Below, one piece after another: positions 5,440 to 39,000 of a stretch of 64,000 nt of DNA. Origin of the DNA: Podarcis vaucheri (taxonomy: Eukaryota); the NCBI GenBank assembly GCA_965113315.1, contig OZ220369.1; one strand, written 5' to 3'. The position numbers were made by a program, and so were the translations under genes. The notes under the pieces were generated by a model. The model had not been told where the DNA came from and searched no databases. It worked only from the letters and a program-made list of their open reading frames with translations. How positions within the stretch are numbered: position 1 is the first letter of the stretch; each line of letters begins with the position of its first letter.

Positions 5440-6620
5440 GGCCGGCGACGACGGCACAGCCTACAGCTCCTCACTCTTCCTAAGAGATTGCTTTGGCTCT
5501 TTGCTCTTCCCCCGAGCTGAAAAGGAAGCTGTACAGCCACCTCCCTCCACTCTGACAAAGAGGCCTCTCTCTCGCGAATATCCCCTGTAGCGCAGGCGCA
5601 GAAACCACCCTCGAATCGACTGCGCGAGGCCCCTGTCCATACAAGAACTGGCACATGCGCATTAAAGCCGCCTCTGGTTCGTTTACGCGAGAGGCTCGCA
5701 TGCGTCGACGGCTTGAGGGCACTTGTTTGCCGAGCACGGCGCAAACGCTCACAACGTCCATTTTGCGTCGCCTGTTGCCGCTGCCCCGCCGTCCCCCCTC
5801 CCGCCCGCGGTCTGAGGCCTTGCGCATGCGCCTCCTTTTCCCGTTGGTTTTTGTGTTTTCCTCTCTTTTTCACCGTCGCCGTGGCTCGAGAGCCGGGCGA
5901 CGCATGCGCAATGTCAACGGAGAGGGGGCGGTCCTGCTGGGCGACAGGCACCGAATTCCTGTCAGGAGCGGCGGTGGCTGAATAAGAGCCCGGCCCGCGC
6001 CTCCTCTGTCCCTGGTCCCGCCTCTCGCCGCCGCAGCACAGCCCCCTCCGCTCCCCTTGCCTGTGGTCAGCAGCCGCTGCGGCGTCCATCCGTCCGTGCC
6101 CCCCCACCGCCGCCCCCCCGTCCCGCCCCCCCACCGCCGCCACCTCCCCCCGGCCGGGCCGCGGAGCTGCGATGCCCTCGGACTTCATCTCTCTCCTCAG
6201 CGCCGACCTCGACCTCGAGTCCCCTAAGTCCCTCTACTCCAAGGGTGAGTCTCTGGTGGGCCTCGGGGGGGGGGGCCGGGGGAGGAAAAGAGCGCCGCCG
6301 CGTTGCATCGACGACTCTGGACTCCGGAGCGGCCTCCTCGCTCGCTCGCTCACCGTTGTTTCTCAGGAATTTGTCCCGGCCCTGTGGGGCGTGTGCGAGA
6401 AGGAGGCCGCTCGGGAGGGACGGGGAGGGGCTGCTGCCCCCCCCCCGCTCGACCAAGGTGAGGAAGGGGCGCAGTCGCCGTTAATAAGGTCACTTTTCGG
6501 GTGGGGGCGGAGCTGCGCTCTACACGTGCTCAGAGGCAGTGCCCCCTACTTTCATTCGCTGTCTATCAATTACCAGATTAGCATCCTTTTTGGCGGCGGT
6601 GGCGGTTCACAAGTAAGGTC
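5440..6620. promoter_or_regulatory. NFAT5: CpG island / TATA-less NFAT5 promoter with NRF1-like sites (5589, 5650, 5695, 5821, 5899), TCGCGA-type sites (5570, 5683), a YY1-like CCATTTTG (5758) and GC boxes
   Basis: Abrupt rise in GC and CpG density around the first exon; repeated GCGCATGCGC-like palindromes are visible directly. The TSS is probably near 5950 (inference). Confidence 0.9.
6172..6244 (+). CDS. NFAT5: NFAT5 coding exon 1 (73 nt), [24 protein letters not shown], includes the N-terminal leucine-rich NES
   Basis: ATG at 6172; donor AAGG|GTGAGT at 6245; phase 1. Confidence 0.96.
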
Positions 6621-19300: not shown

Positions 19301-22300
19301 GATGAAGTAACTTAATTAAGACAATATCTTCTGGCTGTGCCAAAGAACTCCCCTCTCCTTTCCATGCACCTAAATCGGTTCTGGGAGGAGGGCGATTTGA
19401 GGAGAGTAGTGGGAAGTTCTGTTGAGCAACCAGATGTCATTGTGCTAATGGAACTACTTTGTTTGATACTGCCTTCAGTGACCCAAATAAGGTAGAGATT
19501 TTTTTCTAAAGGGTAATCTGCAGTTATATATAATTGCATGTATATATAAAGTGGGTGTTGAATGCCCCGTATTGCCTGTACAATCACTAAAAGTAAGCTC
19601 TCATTGAGACTACTTCCCTAGATGAGCTGTAGTGGCTTTTAATTAGGGATAAAAGCACTGTCCACTGATCCAGGGGTGAAAGTAGGCTTTACTTCTCTTG
19701 GGTCGAAGACCCAGTTTGGCAACTCCCCATACAAACACACACAGGCTGGGAGCCTCAATGATGCCCCTCTGGAAACTTCACCTGAGGCAAAAAACCTGAC
19801 TAGCACCCCCCCCCCCCGCTAGGCTCTGCACTGATCTACCCCCTTTCTTCCTCTGCTCACAGCCCTCCTTCCCAGCTGCACCAGGTTTATTCTCTGTGCT
19901 GACAAGAACATTTGGACACCGGGTGTAAGCTGTGGTTGGTATGTAAGGCTGGGCAAAGTAGCCACAATTGTATTGCTGTGCCCTTTAAGGCAGGCCTTCT
20001 TTCCAACAGTGCCTGGCCATTTTCCTTGTTTGCGCGCTTGAGCTACTTTGAATTGTAAAGTCTGCTTGGAACCCTATCTTTGCCTTCTGCAAGCAAAGTG
20101 TTAACTTGTAACAACAAACGTACAGTATTGAAGTAAGCTATTCAACTTTGGGGGGCCCAAGCTGAAAGGTGGATTAGTTTTAAAGAGGTTGTTATATCAC
20201 TGTTTAAAAAAGAGATCTAAGTGGAGTTATTTTCTCTTAAGTCACACACATTTTAATGGGGAAGATTTCTGTGCCTACACAAGGGCAGATTTGAGAATAT
20301 TCTAGGGGGCTTTGGCAAGGAGATAATGCTCACATTCATTCCCCTGCAAGGAGTAACATTTCACCTTGTTTGCATGCCTCAAGAGTTAGGGTTAGCAGAG
20401 TATCTTCTCACTCTGTACTACTAGTCATAGTGCCAACTGCAGTTCAAAGGCTACAGCTGGATCTGTTGCCCATTGTTGCCTTGTGTGGGCTGCATTCCAT
20501 TGCTTCCCTCCTGGATTTTAAAACCTGAATAAAGGGCCTGTCCTTGTATGGAAAGATATTATTAATGCTAAATGAGACTCCTTGGAGAAGGTAATGAAAA
20601 CTAAATTGATGATTCATTCCAAATTTTAATCCAAGCCAGGAATGTGTTCAGGGGTTTGTAGCGTTCTTTCTCCTTTTGAGGTTGGATTTTACAATTCTGT
20701 TGAGTTACTCTGTGAACCCAGCTCAGGAGAACTTCATTGGTATTTTGATTTGGGAGGCAGGCAGCATGGAATACCCTCCTCTTGGTCTCATGCAAATCTC
20801 CTCTCCTTGTGGTTGGTGTTTAGGAGCATTATTATCCAGGGTTGTTGGAGGCTAAAAACTTGCCATTTGTACAATAATACAAAATCATGTAACAGATGAT
20901 AAATGGACGTCTTTGGGTATCTGTTTTTTGTGATAGTTTATAATGTATAGTTGAGCAAAATGAATGAAAATTGCCAGAACTTAGTGATCTATGTAATAAA
21001 AAAAATGTTACAGTGCATTATCTGAATCAGAAAAGTGGATTGTCTGGATCAGAAACATATATTATCTCTGTTAAAGTAAATAAGTTGCTGTTTGGCATGA
21101 ATATTGAAGACTGCTTTTATGAAAAAAACATGGATTTATATGAAACAGAACATAGTAAAAAGGAAAATTGAGTCAGTTATAAGAGTTGAGTTGATTGTTA
21201 AGGGTCAAATTCTAACCGTTCCGTAGAAATGAAACTCATTGTGCTTCTTACTGGAAAAATCTGAACAGGAACCAGCAAGGAGCTTGTGTCCTGCTTATAT
21301 TTCCTTCCTAGACAATCTTTGTAATACTTTCCATATAGGTTTTGTTCCATTACTCTTGCACTACCCAATATTAGTCTTTAGTGTCTCAGAAATTTTATAT
21401 AGTTTGGAGCAGGGATGCAAAGGGAGATGTGTGATAGTGCTCATGTACACACCAAAAGCTGGTTTGTGATTTGGCAGGGCACAGTTGGTGCTCTTCAGAT
21501 GCTTGTCCAAAGCCTTAAAAACCATGTAAAATTTGGTGAATGCAATTGGTTGGCATACATTGCCATAATTGTGATGGAAAGTTAGTATCTATGGAATTTC
21601 TTACAAATGCCAAAGTTTTGATTTAGTCTTTTACTGATATCCTGTGTAATTGCTAGACTCTTTCAGTGCTTTTGGACTCTTATCTCTGGTACTGAGGTAA
21701 TACAACCTTTTCTTTCTATCATAGATTTGAGGCATACCAACATCATTTTTAGCATTCCTGGTATTTTGGTAGCAAAATATAGGGACATTTGTTTGTTTTC
21801 TTAAGACATCTTTTTTCTTTCTTTTTAGAATCTGTCTATGACCTTCTCCCAAAGGAGCTGCAGTTACCACCTTCCAGAGAACTCTCTGTAGCATCCATGA
21901 GTCAAACAAGTGGTGGTGAGGCAGGTTCGCCCCCTCCGGGTGTAGTTGCTGCTGGTAAGTACTCCACTTGAGTAAAATTAAGGACCTAATGCATATTAAT
22001 ATTGTTGTCAGCATGAGCAGTGCTGGAAAAGTTTGCAGTCTTAAAAAAAACCCACAAGACTAACTTAGACTTAGAAGTAGGGGAAATTTTATTGCACATT
22101 TCCTCTTTTGCCACTATGGTGGTGCTGGACTCCTCAGATATATTATATTTTGATGTAGTAGTTGCCAGTTTAGAACTAAATGGGAGTGTTTGAATGGGCC
22201 AGAGAATCCTGCCTTGCAAACCAGGACAGAAATGAAATCTGCAGCAGTGTTCTGGGTTTGTGGCTTCTACTTTCATTTCCCCACCACCACATGCCTTGAT

Positions 22301-31300: not shown

Positions 31301-34273
31301 GAAGTTAGTGCTATTTTAACAAAAGCTAGGTAAAAAAATAATGTCCCATAGCAAACTTTTCAACTCAAAGTGGCTGCAAATCAGCAATTATATATAGTCA
31401 CTGAAATTAGCAAACTTTACATCTTTCTAAGGAAAGCATTGCATTAATGCATGATACAAAAAGGACTTGGAAAATGTTTTGGTTTTTTTTAAAAAATTAA
31501 AATGCAGTTCTGAGTGACTGAAACTTCCAATTTCAGCCACTGCATTTGCCAAGGAACAAGCTGGAAAATGGAACTGGTATCTGTCAGTGGCTCCAGATTA
31601 TTCCAGAGACTGGCTAGAGATGGGATGGGGGTAGTTCTAAGGGAAGAGTGCACTGTTACCTGACTGATAGGTTCACATTTGAAACCTTCATAACTAAAAC
31701 TAAACAGATTGATCTGTTTTGCTTTTAGTCTATATTTCTTGGGCTTCTTAATGCAATACTAACATTTTCACTAGGTCAGTATGTCAGTTTATGTTTTTTC
31801 TGTACCTTAAGTATATTATTGCATATTGAATGCATTTAAAAGAAAAGGAACCTGCAACAATCTTAATTCCTTTTTCTGACCCTTTCAGTTTAAACACAGA
31901 AATTCTGTTCATTGAGTCATCAGAAGCCACCTTCCTTTTTATAGTTAACATAAGTTTTACCAATCTTATTTGCTCCCTTCAGCAGGTAGTGCTATCAACT
32001 TAATACAGCTATTTTTTAAGCTAATTATTCTGGAATAGGGAGATGTCTTAAGCTGGTGGGTAATTTTTTTATTTAGTAGCATTCTCAGATATATGCAGAG
32101 AGTTGCAGCCCACAATCTCCTTAGCTCAGAGCAATCACTTTGACTTCAGGACACTGTTGAGGAGTGAAGGCTTTGTGGGCAGTTAAATATATTTTATCTA
32201 TGCATTCTTCTTGCCTAACCTGCTTTTAAGAAGCCCTAGTCGCAAACAGATATCTAATTCTTAGGCCAGCACCTACCCTGGTAGTTATTTAGCCATCGAC
32301 CCTAATAATGTTCCTTTTGCTGAGACATGGGCTGCTACTTATGCCATCAGTAATGCTGGGTGGCTTTAATTCGTTTTATATTTTTATGGACTTGAAGTAA
32401 CACATAAGGAGGTGACTTGATCATGCCTCTTCCATTTTCTTACCAGCATGCTCTGATTTCAAATCTCAGCTGAATAATTTTTTTAAAGCCATAAATGGTG
32501 ATTGGTACCAGTTCCATTTTGTTGCGGTTAAGTTATTTTTGTCTTTCATTTCTCATTTAATAGTTAATATCTGGAATAATGANNNNNNNNNNNNNNNNNN
32601 NNNNNNNNNNNNNNNNNNNNNNNNNNNNNNNNNNNNNNNNNNNNNNNNNNNNNNNNNNNNNNNNNNNNNNNNNNNNNNNNNNNNNNNNNNNNNNNNNNNN
32701 NNNNNNNNNNNNNNTAAGCACAGTCCCACCTTTTTCAAAAATTTCAGATGCTGGTTGATTGGCATGAAATGTGGCCTAAAAGCACTGACACATGTCTTGC
32801 ATTGGGGTTCCTATCATTTTAGATAAAATGGCTTAAACTCAAAGTCCAGCTGAGGCAATAAAAGCGCCCTTGTTTGCTTACAGCCTTTTTATGACTTAAA
32901 GAAAATTTAAAGAAAAAAGTCTGATTGCCACATGCACAAAAATGGAAGTATCATTTGGACACTTTTCAGAATACTTCTGTGTTGCTTAAGCCTTATATCA
33001 CTTGAAGTGTTTAAATTCAAAAACAAGCCAAATTCCAAAACATTCATTTGGGGGAAAAATCAGTTCACTAATCACATTACTTCAAAGGGACTGCTATAGC
33101 CAGCACAGTTGGGATCATGTACCCTGTATTTACTTCTGAATTGTACACCGCAGATGCTTCTTCAGCTCCCTCCTCTTCCTCCATGGGCGGTGCTTGCAGC
33201 TCCTTTACCACCTCTTCCAGTCCCACCATTTACTCTACCTCAGTCACTGACAGCAAAGCTATGCAAGTGGAGAGCTGCTCCTCAGCCATGGGGGTAAGTA
33301 ACCGAGGGGTAAGTGACAAGCAGTTAACCAATAACACAGCCCAGCAGCAGCAACAACAGTCCACACCGAAGAGGCACACAGTCCTGTACATCACACCACC
33401 ACCGGAGGACTTGCTGGACAACAGCCGGATGTCCTGCCAGGATGAGGGGTGCGGATTGGAATCTGAGCAGAGCTGCAGTATGTGGATGGAGGATTCCCCC
33501 TCCAACTTCAGTAACATGAGCACCAGTTCCTACAATGATAACACTGAGGTGCCACGTAAATCACGTAAACGAAATCCAAAGCAGAGACCGGGGATCAAAC
33601 GGCGAGATTGTGAAGAGTCAACCATGGATATCTTTGATGCTGACAGTGCCAAAGCGCCTCATTATGTCCTTTCTCAGCTCAGCACGGACAGCAAAAGCAA
33701 CTCGAAAGCAGGAAATGGGTTGGTATCTGCCTTTAAGTTCTATCAACATATGTTTAAAAAACAAGCTAAAAGCATTACCTTAACTTTTCCCTAGTGTTCA
33801 GCTCAGGTTCACACTGAGAAATACAGGAGAGGTGATAATCTGGAACTAAGTTCAATGGTTTCTTATGCTAAAATGCAAGGTTTACATATGAATATATATT
33901 CTAGTCTGATTTAGCAACTATTGAACTAATCTGTCCTGGAATTGTTGTCTAGCTCTTCCCTGTGGAAACTGATTAGTGAATAGGAAGCTTTTCAATAAAA
34001 GCATGTTAAAAATGTAGTCCCTGAAGCTGAGATCGGCTCCTCCATGTCTTCCTCAACAGTACCATACAAAGCTATTTATAAGGGATCTGCACTTCGCCTA
34101 CTTCTGTTTCACTCTCTCCATCAATTAAAGACAGCTGATTTTGATCTTATTATATTAACACTTACTAAAATGTTAAAATATGCTGAACCAAATTTGTGTT
34201 CCATGTCACTTCAGTTATGTATTTGATTTTTCAGAAATAAATCTCTAATCCTGTTTTGCTGTGTGCTTCTCGG

Positions 34274-36015: not shown

Positions 36016-39000
36016 CTGGAGTCATCCTGAATAGCTCAGTGCAAATGTTGCCATCACAAAAGGCAAAGTACTACGATGAAAACAACTGTGTTTGACTACT
36101 AGAGGCATGGTTCTGGTTTTCATAAAACACCTGTCTAACCTACTGGACTTTATATTAACCAGTAGCACCTAAGTAAAGTGTGTATTCACATTTTAGATCC
36201 CTGGACATTGATGAGAAACGGGAAGAGAAGGAGTATTTAGCAGAGTGACACTGTGATGACCCCTTCAGCATATAGAATTTTGGAGAATTCATAGAAGGAT
36301 CTTAAAATGCCACTGTCAGTTTCTCAAGGATGAGAAGGAGAAGTTCTAGTTGTGCAGTTGATTTATGAATACTGCTTATGAACGAGCAGATTTAGGTAGA
36401 AATTGTGAACACAGATTCTTGTTTACTGTGTTATAGGCCTGCCGTCATGTACTTGAAACTCTCATGAGATTTAAAATATTTATTTTATCCAGACCTGTCC
36501 TCAAATGCAAAAACCGATTAAACATCTTTTTAAAAATAGGTTTTCGTACAGCTGCTACTTTTGCTAGACCAGGGGTGGGCAACCTTTTTATACCTACCAC
36601 TCACTAATGCATCTTTCTTGATGGTAAAATTTCCTTACTGCCCACCAGTGCTCGATGGAAGGAGGATTCAGCGTGTGCCGTAGAACCCCCTACCGCTCAC
36701 CTAGTGGGCGGTAGGGACCAGGTTGACAACCCCTTAGCTAGACCATAGCTAAACATAGAATATATCTTACCTGCCAAGTGCCACTGAGAGAGTTTTTTCA
36801 TGCTTAGATTCTATTTCATTTGTACATAAAGTTTGTTACGTAGCAGTCTTCCACACTGTGTGTGAAGCCTGGAGAGAAGTCCTAAAATAGGGTTGCCAGG
36901 ATACCCCGAAAGTTGTTGAGTTGTGGGGTTTTTTTGGACAAACCCCAAAGTTGTTGAGCTTTTCTTTTTCACGAAAACACAAAAGAACCCATGATTTTTT
37001 GATTGAAGTAGAACACTTATCAGCATTAAACACATTTTTTTTCAGGGCCTTTTGGTAGCAGGAGCACAGTGGTGGATGCAGGTTTTATGGCATTCCAGAC
37101 TAGTACAGCAGACATTTCAAGCAGTGTTTTCTATGAAGCTTTACTAACAAAGCTTAAAGTGCTAAAGTACTAAGTACTAAAAGATCCGTAGTGCTGGAAA
37201 TAGCCATGAAACTCCTGTGTTGATTATGGCTGTTCTTGAATGATTTTCCATACTTTGTGGGCTGAGATACTGAGGTCCTGATGTAGACCTGTTCTACCTT
37301 TCACAATGCTGTATTGTGAGAACTGGCTTAGGGCTGCCCATGCCCCTGGTTTGATGTTATAGTGCACATGCTGGTGTTCCAGAAAGAAGACAAGTACTTT
37401 TTAGTTCACAGAGGACAAGCTTAAAATATACGTAGGCACTCAGATCTGCAGAGCACACAATTCATTCCCATTCTCCCTATGAGCCAGTGAGGACTTGTAC
37501 AAACAGAAGCCCACATCAGGGATAGGACATGTTGAAACTGCATTCCTAAAAATCTTGAAGCTAGGGATGTCCGAAAGACAGTGCCCTTTGGGGGCCTTCT
37601 TCAAATTGGTTTCATTTATGGAACTGACCATTCAATGCAGTTTCTAAACAATGTTGCTGGTTAGAGGCTGAGCCGTGTTGCATGTATTACTTCATTAGAG
37701 CAGACTCAGCAGCTTAAAGAGATGGTTCTAAAAGAAATAAATCAGACTGATCCGTCACTATATAGTGTCTGTAAACTTGAACTGCTGCAAGGTCAGGAGC
37801 AAAGCAAGCCTTTCCTTTTACCACTGAAATATTTCTCTTCACCTTGGATGCTGTTCAAAATGGTTATAATTAGTGACGAAAACATGATGAACAGTTTTAA
37901 GATGCCTGCCATCTCATTCCATCTGACTAGATTTATACAGGTATTTTTGCCTAAATAGCAGTGTGCCTTTTTCTTACATTCTTACATAAAACAAAGATTA
38001 AAAGGGCTTAAGTTTCAGGCTATATGGTTTAGTTACTGAATTTCTGTTGTGAGTTCGGTACATGAAACCACACACCCCCTTCTACATTTCTTCCCAGTTT
38101 GCAGTCTTGCGTTGTGATTTTATATTGGTAGATTTAAGTACGGCCCAGATCTGTGTTCTTTTCTCTTCCCCCTCACCACCCCAGTTGTGCTTGTTTTTTA
38201 AAGAAAGCCTCTGGTAACTGAAACCACTGGTCTGCTTTAACTCTTTAGAACATCAGAAACCCCAAAAACAACTGGAGGCAAGAAGAGTCCTATGTTATGT
38301 GGTCAGTACCCTGGTAAAAGTGAAGGCAAGGAGCTGAAGATAATGGTGCAGCCAGAGACACAGCACAGAGCTCGCTACCTAACTGAGGGCAGTCGGGGCT
38401 CGGTGAAAGACAGAACACAACAAGGATTCCCCACCGTAAAGGTAGGCCAATTCAATTTTGGGGGTGGGCCAATTCAGGAGTGTGCTGCCATTTATGGTAA
38501 GCGAAAATCCAGTTCTTCACCTCCAGCCAAACCTGACTCTGGCCAAAAGACAAACATACTAGGTCCTCCATGGCATCATGGGTTTCCCTTCAGTGGCAAA
38601 CTGTTGCCAGTGCCACGGTGTGTTTTTCAGTATTGATGTTGTCATTCTAAGTTGTAAATTGCACTAGTTTAGAATCTGTGTATATAGTTCCATATTTCTC
38701 AGGGATGTGGCTTTTGTGTTGTTTGGAGAGTAGAGGTCTGGATTTTTCTTAGTTTAGAACAGAGCAGCCTTTCTTGTTGAGTGGAGGATGTGTAAATATA
38801 GACCAATAGCTGCTCTCAGCAATTAACAGTTAAATGAATGCACAGAGCACTGTCTGTGGGGCTGTTCATCAGAAACTAGGCAAGCTGTGATGTAGTGCAT
38901 CAGAAAAAAGGTGTGAGGAAGCCCTCAAAGACTGTGCTAAACTGAATGGGGCTCTGTACCTACAATGGCTTTCTAACTTTTAGCCTGGAGTATGGACAGA

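What the first reader, a model, noticed from the sequence alone, without database searches (positions are those of the whole stretch)
33154..33314. Dual-frame exon: an overlapping ORF plus an internal consensus donor would splice a different N-terminus in-frame onto the NFAT5 DNA-binding domain
Seen: the first three bases of the 565-nt exon are an out-of-frame ATG opening a 47-codon Pro-rich ORF ([20 protein letters not shown]...PQPWG, TAA at 33295-97). That stop lies inside a consensus-type donor GGG|GTAAGT (GT at 33294). Cutting there removes the stop and leaves GG at phase 2, the same phase and the same bases as the normal donor, so it joins exon 38249 as GGA-ACA-TCA (G-T-S...) in the RHD frame. 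A second GGG|GTAAGT lies 15 nt later (33309), while the donor used by the full-length exon is the weaker GG|GTTGGT. Inference: an NFAT5 form could exist that keeps the RHD/IPT/TAD but lacks the NES, the MGGAC lipidation motif, the auxiliary export domain and the NLS, and so has different tonicity-controlled localisation. In the AUG1 frame the same splice gives a premature stop. Alternatively, the two sites are U1 decoys that modulate exon definition.
Basis: partly seen in the sequence, partly recalled or inferred. Interest (0 to 1): 0.72.

Follow-up and report, generated by a model that had tools for sequence, protein, structure and literature searches.

The report
Conserved frame-shifting splice donor in NFAT5
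A splice donor inside one exon of this lizard's salt-stress regulator gene NFAT5 matches a shortened form that automatic gene models list in 25 reptile, bird and mammal species; the cut likely sends most such messages to decay, and is predicted to let a second reading frame make an NFAT5 lacking its nuclear import signal, a protein not yet shown to exist.

Summary
Observation confirmed: an out-of-frame ATG (33154) opens 47 codons whose stop lies in a GGG|GTAAGT donor (33294); splicing there to exon 38249 keeps that frame open into the Rel domain. The predicted junction protein already stands in NCBI gene models: 27 of 296 proteins held, 25 species (12 birds, 7 turtles, 5 squamates, 1 seal), and a human 140-nt interval of the same size is in a published table. 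The second frame is 41-45 of 46 identical across amniotes, i.e. strong synonymous constraint. No reads were obtained for this lizard, and no evidence of translation: gene models simply take the longest ORF, the ATG context is poor, and from the normal start the splice gives a stop 124 nt before the next junction. Most likely a conserved unproductive (NMD) splice in an exon region under RNA-level control, with an NLS-less protein as a possible minor product when the known upstream poison exon is included. Not described in the papers searched; this scan's notes held no earlier NFAT5 case. A new member of a known kind (dual-frame exon by alternative 5' splice site), annotated but unstudied.

The parts
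6172..6244 (+). NFAT5 exon 1 coding part with AUG1 (carries the NES by homology)
   Evidence: translation and donor; NES position from PMC3655004
21829..21954 (+). 126-nt coding exon upstream, ends in phase 1; supplies the -3 context (C) of ATG 33154 when joined directly
33154..33718 (+). full 565-nt exon (human exon 5 equivalent)
   Evidence: tblastn of Lacerta agilis model 100% over it
33154..33293 (+). 140-nt short form of the exon; dual-frame stretch (46 codons + 2 nt)
   Evidence: human 140-nt interval in PMC12026817 supplement file 4
33154..33297 (+). alternative-frame ORF, 47 codons, stop TAA inside the donor; an overlapping out-of-frame ORF on the full exon
33183..33185 (+). main-frame AUG of isoform a (MGGAC), 29 nt downstream of the alternative ATG
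33294..33299 (+). internal donor 1 (GGG|GTAAGT), used by gene models in 25 other species
33309..33314 (+). internal donor-like site 2 (GGG|GTAAGT); closed in both frames tested; no model held uses it
33294..33718 (+). 425 nt removed by the splice; encodes the AED-like stretch (TPKRH at 33363) and the NLS (RKSRKR at 33555)
   Evidence: domain positions from PMC3655004
33719..33724 (+). normal donor GG|GTTGGT
38249..38441 (+). acceptor exon leading into the Rel homology domain; premature stop of the AUG1 frame at 38315-38317 after the short splice

Best explanation
The GGG|GTAAGT at 33294 is likely a real alternative 5' splice site kept across amniotes, which would cut 425 nt from the exon and shift the frame, so that messages read from the normal start would hit a premature stop and likely be degraded by NMD, lowering NFAT5 dose. 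Shown: the sites, frames and stop positions; the same junction in gene models of 25 species; strong synonymous constraint. Inferred: use of the donor in this lizard, NMD, regulation. On messages that also include the known upstream poison exon, translation from AUG1 ends before this exon; the ATG at 33154 would then be the first start met, acting as an overlapping upstream ORF on full-exon messages and giving a minor NLS-less NFAT5 (about 1,290 aa) on short-exon messages. I take the RNA-level role as the main reason for conservation and the protein as a possible by-product.
For: 27 of 296 proteins held carry the alt-frame N-terminus joined to the next exon, from 25 species (accessions). Human table row: interval chr16:69647028-69647167 (140 nt) beside a 62-nt unproductive cassette exon and a 126-nt exon, the sizes of this window's short exon and upstream exon. 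AUG1 frame stops 124 nt before the next junction, beyond the 50-nt rule. NFAT5 is already regulated by a conserved poison exon and NMD. Constraint is graded toward the 3' splice site: 2 of 22 variable columns in the first part against 9 of 24 in the rest, Fisher p=0.038, as expected of splicing elements more than of a peptide. Observed alt-frame changes include L/P, P/L, T/I, the pattern of main-frame synonymous transitions, and the main frame differs less from the window (0-2 of 46) than the alt frame (1-5 of 46) in 6 species pairs. ATG context is poor when joined to the 126-nt exon (-3 C, +4 C). The same exon shows a second frameshifting event in three mammal models, and a model with an exon-1 alternative frame (P0151) shows that the pipeline gives the longest ORF to frameshifted transcripts.
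Against: No read-level evidence for this species was obtained, and the 2 Lacerta agilis models in the cluster looked up do not include the short form. No NMD-inhibition data for this junction were seen. The second frame is far better kept than free synonymous drift would allow (41 of 46 lizard vs seal; simulation mean 32.5 at 0.5 and 25.9 at 1.0 attempted changes per third position; 13 of 4000 and 0 of 4000 runs reached 41, but 7.5% did at 0.3), which dual coding would also explain. No unusual local RNA structure was found to account for it (z 0.3-0.7 in the four windows over the stretch). Six snake models have V in place of the isoform-a Met while snake models keep the alt ATG, which favours some role for that ATG. 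The Fisher split at codon 22 was chosen after seeing the data.
Confidence: 0.5

Rival explanations
1. Functional dual coding: the alternative frame is translated and the NLS-, NES- and AED-less NFAT5 is a selected isoform that would stay cytoplasmic or enter the nucleus only as a dimer partner, damping or rerouting the tonicity response.
For: ATG, frame, phase and donor all line up and are kept in 25 species; 35 of 46 columns invariant; snakes lost the isoform-a Met but kept this ATG; a preprint reports ribosome footprints beyond the NFAT5 poison-exon stop and NMD escape in some cells, which it ascribes to possible readthrough but re-initiation downstream could also give; NLS mutation blocks import (PMC3655004) and nuclear location is necessary for activity (PMC11838016).
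Against: No peptide or ribosome evidence seen; only species with an intact ORF can appear as such models (ascertainment); only 3 of 101 single synonymous changes would make a stop, so an open frame is weak evidence; radical L/P swaps are tolerated; NFAT5 absent from the main text of a 2026 survey of selected dual-coding regions and from the supplements of two others; 0 of 4 shorter hits spanned the junction.
Confidence: 0.27
2. Splicing noise: a latent donor fixed by Gly-Val-Ser codons inside a region conserved for other reasons, used at a low level and picked up by deep RNA-seq annotation; no role of its own.
For: Main-frame GVS motifs are kept in amniotes and partly in amphibians; many species' clusters lack the model (e.g. 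Rhineura, Eublepharis, Heteronotia, Alligator, Sorex, Ochotona clusters); only 1 mammal model seen.
Against: Recurrent use of the same site, and never of the identical site 15 nt away, in four amniote lineages; Val-Ser need not be GTA AGT (p about 0.022); synonymous constraint extends to the donor.
Confidence: 0.18
3. The two sites are U1 decoys or exon-definition elements that are not cut.
For: Both match U1 better than the normal donor (7 vs 5 of 9); site 33294 is mostly paired in a local fold (mean unpaired 0.16); site 2 is unused in all models held.
Against: Site 1 is used as a donor in models of 25 species.
Confidence: 0.05

Closest known systems
NCBI predicted NFAT5 isoforms with this N-terminus, e.g. 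XP_053126515.1 (Hemicordylus X5), XP_025029266.1 (Python X2), XP_030138404.3 (zebra finch X4), XP_048726655.1 (sea turtles), XP_032280370.1 (Phoca vitulina X9)
   Same: Same start, same 47-residue alternative frame (41-45 of 46 identical where ungapped), same junction into the next exon
   Different: They are automatic predictions without a study behind them that I could find; none seen for a lacertid lizard
Human NFAT5 isoforms a-d and the poison exon 4 (PMC3655004 passages; PMC4632709 passages; PMC12105643 passages; preprints 10.1101/2025.04.06.646893 and 10.64898/2026.06.30.735642)
   Same: Same gene region; N-terminal diversity and NMD control by alternative splicing just upstream
   Different: Those are cassette-exon events and in-frame starts that keep the AED and NLS; this is an internal donor with a frame change that removes them
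Dual-coding regions made by alternative splicing (10.64898/2026.05.28.727796, abstract and passages; 10.64898/2026.02.24.707805, listing and supplements searched)
   Same: One exon stretch read in two frames depending on splice choice; conserved second frame
   Different: The surveyed cases change the C-terminus; here the second frame needs its own AUG and replaces the N-terminus; selection on the second frame and peptides are not shown
Nested out-of-frame ORFs expressed from alternative transcripts (PMC11526972, listing, start of abstract and supplements searched)
   Same: An internal out-of-frame AUG becomes usable when the main start is bypassed
   Different: Here the ORF would be spliced back into the main frame and give a long protein, not a microprotein

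Membership tests
Alternative 5' splice site (conserved) | Consensus donor inside the exon | tested here: met
   GGG|GTAAGT, 7 of 9 consensus matches
Alternative 5' splice site (conserved) | Junction used in transcripts of this species | not tested
   No reads were laid on the junction; remains open
Alternative 5' splice site (conserved) | Same junction in orthologues | tested here: met
   Gene models of 25 species; that such models rest on transcript evidence is recalled knowledge of the NCBI pipeline, not checked (one search found no paper)
AS-NMD (unproductive splicing) | Premature stop more than 50 nt before a downstream junction | tested here: met
   124 nt in the AUG1 frame
AS-NMD (unproductive splicing) | Isoform rises on NMD inhibition; event is regulated | not testable with these tools
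   No data for this junction in the papers read
Functional dual-coding exon | Second frame open and conserved in orthologues | tested here: met
   35 of 46 columns invariant over 25 sequences, with ascertainment toward intact ORFs
Functional dual-coding exon | Purifying selection on the second frame's amino acids, beyond nucleotide constraint | tested here: inconclusive
   Excess identity over simulation but graded constraint and radical swaps; no orthologous DNA for dN/dS
Functional dual-coding exon | Translation shown by ribosome profiling or peptides | not testable with these tools
   None seen; ATG context poor with the 126-nt exon; context with the cassette exon cannot be read in this window
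NFAT5 (Rel family) gene | Rel homology and IPT domains, collinear exons | tested here: met
   All best hits are NFAT5 with PF00554/PF16179; exons mapped by tblastn

The most novel reading that the evidence does not exclude
Amniotes make a fifth NFAT5 protein: two coupled splices (poison-exon inclusion plus the internal donor) turn a doomed message into one translated from an out-of-frame AUG, giving a 47-residue proline-rich N-terminus on the intact DNA-binding, dimerisation and stress-sensing parts but no NLS, NES or AED, a built-in cytoplasmic modulator of the salt-stress response that also explains why the NFAT5 poison isoform escapes NMD in some cells.
Probability: 0.25. Interest if true: 0.75.

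Novelty: new member of a known kind. Interest (0 to 1): 0.5.

Why it matters
NFAT5 is the vertebrate tonicity-response factor and its location is set by the NLS, NES and AED. Reviews list four isoforms, all keeping the NLS, and the published isoform PCRs use primers in exons 1 and 5, which cannot see a change at the 3' end of exon 5. A conserved donor that removes the NLS and AED is either a second dose-control switch or an unrecognised protein, and gives a direct, testable alternative (re-initiation) to the readthrough proposed for the NFAT5 poison isoform. It is already in automatic annotations, so the gain is in recognising and testing it, not in finding a new kind of mechanism.

Tried and rejected
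Sequencing runs: no RNA holder listed on record among the indexed holders; no read or contig table was obtained, so nothing is concluded on expression. Search for shorter proteins with the alt N-terminus: 4 hits among 922 candidates, none spanning the junction; P0297 is an unspliced genomic ORF call ending at the same stop. Search with residues 1-50 of a turtle model returned only the 9 cluster representatives already seen. Local RNA structure or long-range pairing as the cause of constraint: no support (z 0.3-0.7; no reverse-complement match of 11 nt or more in the flanking introns, N stretches unreadable). Amphibians: none of the 17 members of 4 fully listed clusters carries the form; crocodilian cluster 0 of 7; absence from models is not absence of the splice. 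One search joined one exon a base off; corrected. The main-frame column count failed and was redone; the Macrochelys pair there gave no main-frame segment and was dropped (6 of 7 pairs used). The dN/dS values in the published table row (1.30 and 8.95) were not used: column order and frame are unclear. A recalled link to named ultraconserved elements found no support in the search listing and is dropped. Literature: 10 full-text searches showed no paper on this donor or isoform; most subscription papers are not held, two papers were not available, and bioRxiv supplements (including the tables of 10.64898/2026.05.28.727796 and Table S5 of 10.64898/2026.06.30.735642) were not seen and could list it. 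Scan notes: nothing near this place, no finding with all the words.

Full report
Setting. The window holds the NFAT5 gene of a lacertid-like lizard on the + strand: a Lacerta agilis model matches the exon in question at 100% and the large 3' exon at 95%, and the stretch occurs once in the genome. Exons mapped: 6172-6244 (AUG1), 21829-21954, 33154-33718, 38249-38441 and onward.

The observation. The exon opens with an ATG in the frame one base ahead of the main frame; it runs 47 codons to a TAA that lies in GGG|GTAAGT at 33294. Cutting there gives a 140-nt exon that joins 38249 in the Rel-domain frame. From AUG1 the same splice stops after 135 codons, 124 nt before the next junction; from the isoform-a AUG after 59 codons. 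The second GGG|GTAAGT (33309) is closed in both frames tested. The internal sites match the donor consensus at 7 of 9 places, the normal donor at 5. Two GTAAGT in 565 nt compare with 0.13 expected from the window. The 425 nt removed encode the stretches that correspond to the AED and NLS as placed in PMC3655004 (passages read).

Is the donor used? I obtained no read-level data for this species. An independent route gave a clear answer for relatives. A search with the downstream exon's peptide found 568 proteins, 120 listed; 30 of these representatives were expanded (at most 15 members listed per cluster, the largest has 434). Of the 296 proteins then held, 27 begin with the alternative-frame peptide joined exactly to the next exon: 12 bird, 7 turtle, 5 squamate species (Hemicordylus, Python, Liasis, Candoia, Protobothrops) and the harbour seal. 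None uses the second site. None was seen among 17 amphibian or 7 crocodilian-cluster members, nor in the 2 Lacerta agilis models. That NCBI's alternative models rest on aligned transcripts is my recollection, not checked here, and propagation by protein homology cannot be excluded. For human, supplement file 4 of PMC12026817 (one row seen) lists chr16:69647028-69647167, 140 nt, next to a 62-nt unproductive cassette and a 126-nt exon; the sizes equal this window's short exon and upstream exon, so I read it as the human short form, though the passages read do not say how flanking intervals were chosen. By the human spacing the cassette exon would lie about 450 nt upstream of 33154, where this window reads N, so its presence and the ATG context it would supply cannot be checked.

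Constraint. The third base of each main-frame codon is the second base of an alternative-frame codon, so alternative-frame identity measures synonymous conservation. Identity to the window is 45 of 46 (Hemicordylus), 41-43 (turtles), 41-42 (birds) and 41 (seal). A simulation of free synonymous change gave means of 36.7, 32.5, 28.6, 25.9 and 22.4 at 0.3, 0.5, 0.75, 1.0 and 1.5 attempted changes per third position; the share reaching 41 was 7.5%, 0.3%, 0, 0 and 0 of 4000. The true lizard-mammal neutral distance was not measured here; from recall it exceeds 1. So the stretch is strongly constrained at the nucleotide level. Whether for a peptide or for RNA elements is open. For RNA: variable columns are 2 of 22 near the acceptor and 9 of 24 after (p=0.038, split chosen afterwards); the swaps seen are those of main-frame synonymous transitions, some radical; the main frame varies less; only 3 of 101 single synonymous changes would create a stop; and only intact ORFs can appear as models. 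For a peptide: no local structure explains it, the constraint reaches the donor, and six snake models have lost the isoform-a Met while the alternative ATG persists.

Annotation is not translation. A Rhineura model (P0151) reads exon 1 in another frame into the same acceptor, and three mammal models start at yet another out-of-frame ATG of this exon: the pipeline gives the longest ORF to frameshifted transcripts. The ATG context after the 126-nt exon is poor. No junction-spanning protein from unnamed contigs was found (0 of 4 hits).

Mechanism. Most likely the donor is a conserved unproductive splice beside the known poison exon, which reviews and preprints describe as an NMD switch (passages of PMC12105643; 10.1101/2025.04.06.646893). 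When that poison exon is included, AUG1 translation ends upstream and the ATG at 33154 would be the first start met, 29 nt before the isoform-a AUG: a repressive overlapping ORF on full-exon messages and a rescue start on short-exon messages, giving about 1,290 residues without NES, lipidation motif, AED or NLS. A 2026 preprint (10.64898/2026.06.30.735642, passages and section 17 read) finds footprints beyond the poison-exon stop and NMD escape in some cells and suggests readthrough; re-initiation is my alternative, untested. NLS loss blocks import and nuclear location is necessary for activity (PMC11838016 passages), so such a protein would be predicted to stay cytoplasmic unless carried by a dimer partner.

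Novelty. The kind is known (dual-frame exons through alternative splice sites; AS-NMD). This case is in automatic annotations but in none of the papers found by 10 searches; NFAT5 is absent from the main text of a 2026 dual-coding survey (abstract, outline and passages) and from the supplements of two related studies; bioRxiv supplements and most subscription papers were not seen. PMC6115610 and PMC4632709 (passages) describe only exon 2 and exon 4 variants or isoforms a-d. Verdict: real, conserved, annotated, unstudied; protein unproven. Interest 0.5.

Noticed in passing
P0008, P0011, P0013, P0025, P0160, P0161 (snake NFAT5 models); window 33183-33185: Six snake models read Val where other amniotes have the isoform-a start Met of the lipidated MGGAC N-terminus, so snakes may lack that isoform.
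   Followed up: partly
window 33535-33646: Three mammal models (P0203, P0215, P0219) start MITLSAK, implying a 98-nt frameshifting exitron in the same exon that removes the NLS; the window has the matching ATG (33535), GT (33549) and AG (33645-33646).
   Followed up: partly
P0133, P0200, P0222, P0225, P0288, P0294; window 38249-38441: Six models (Anolis, pangolin, two pikas, tinamou, caecilian) start at a Met inside the next exon, suggesting further transcripts that lose this exon's main frame; their junctions cannot be told from protein alone.
   Followed up: no
P0151 (Rhineura floridana X7); window 6172-6244 to 38249: A model joins exon 1 straight to the 38249 exon with an upstream alternative frame; in this window that frame has a stop.
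   Followed up: partly
P0007, P0010 (two pigeons): The otherwise near-invariant main-frame stretch carries a cluster of substitutions in pigeons; a natural test of whether the second frame is dispensable.
   Followed up: no
window 33117-33153: An in-frame intronic ATG upstream of the acceptor is used as a start by Lacerta and other models (P0001, P0105, P0140), implying intron-retaining or alternative-start transcripts.
   Followed up: no
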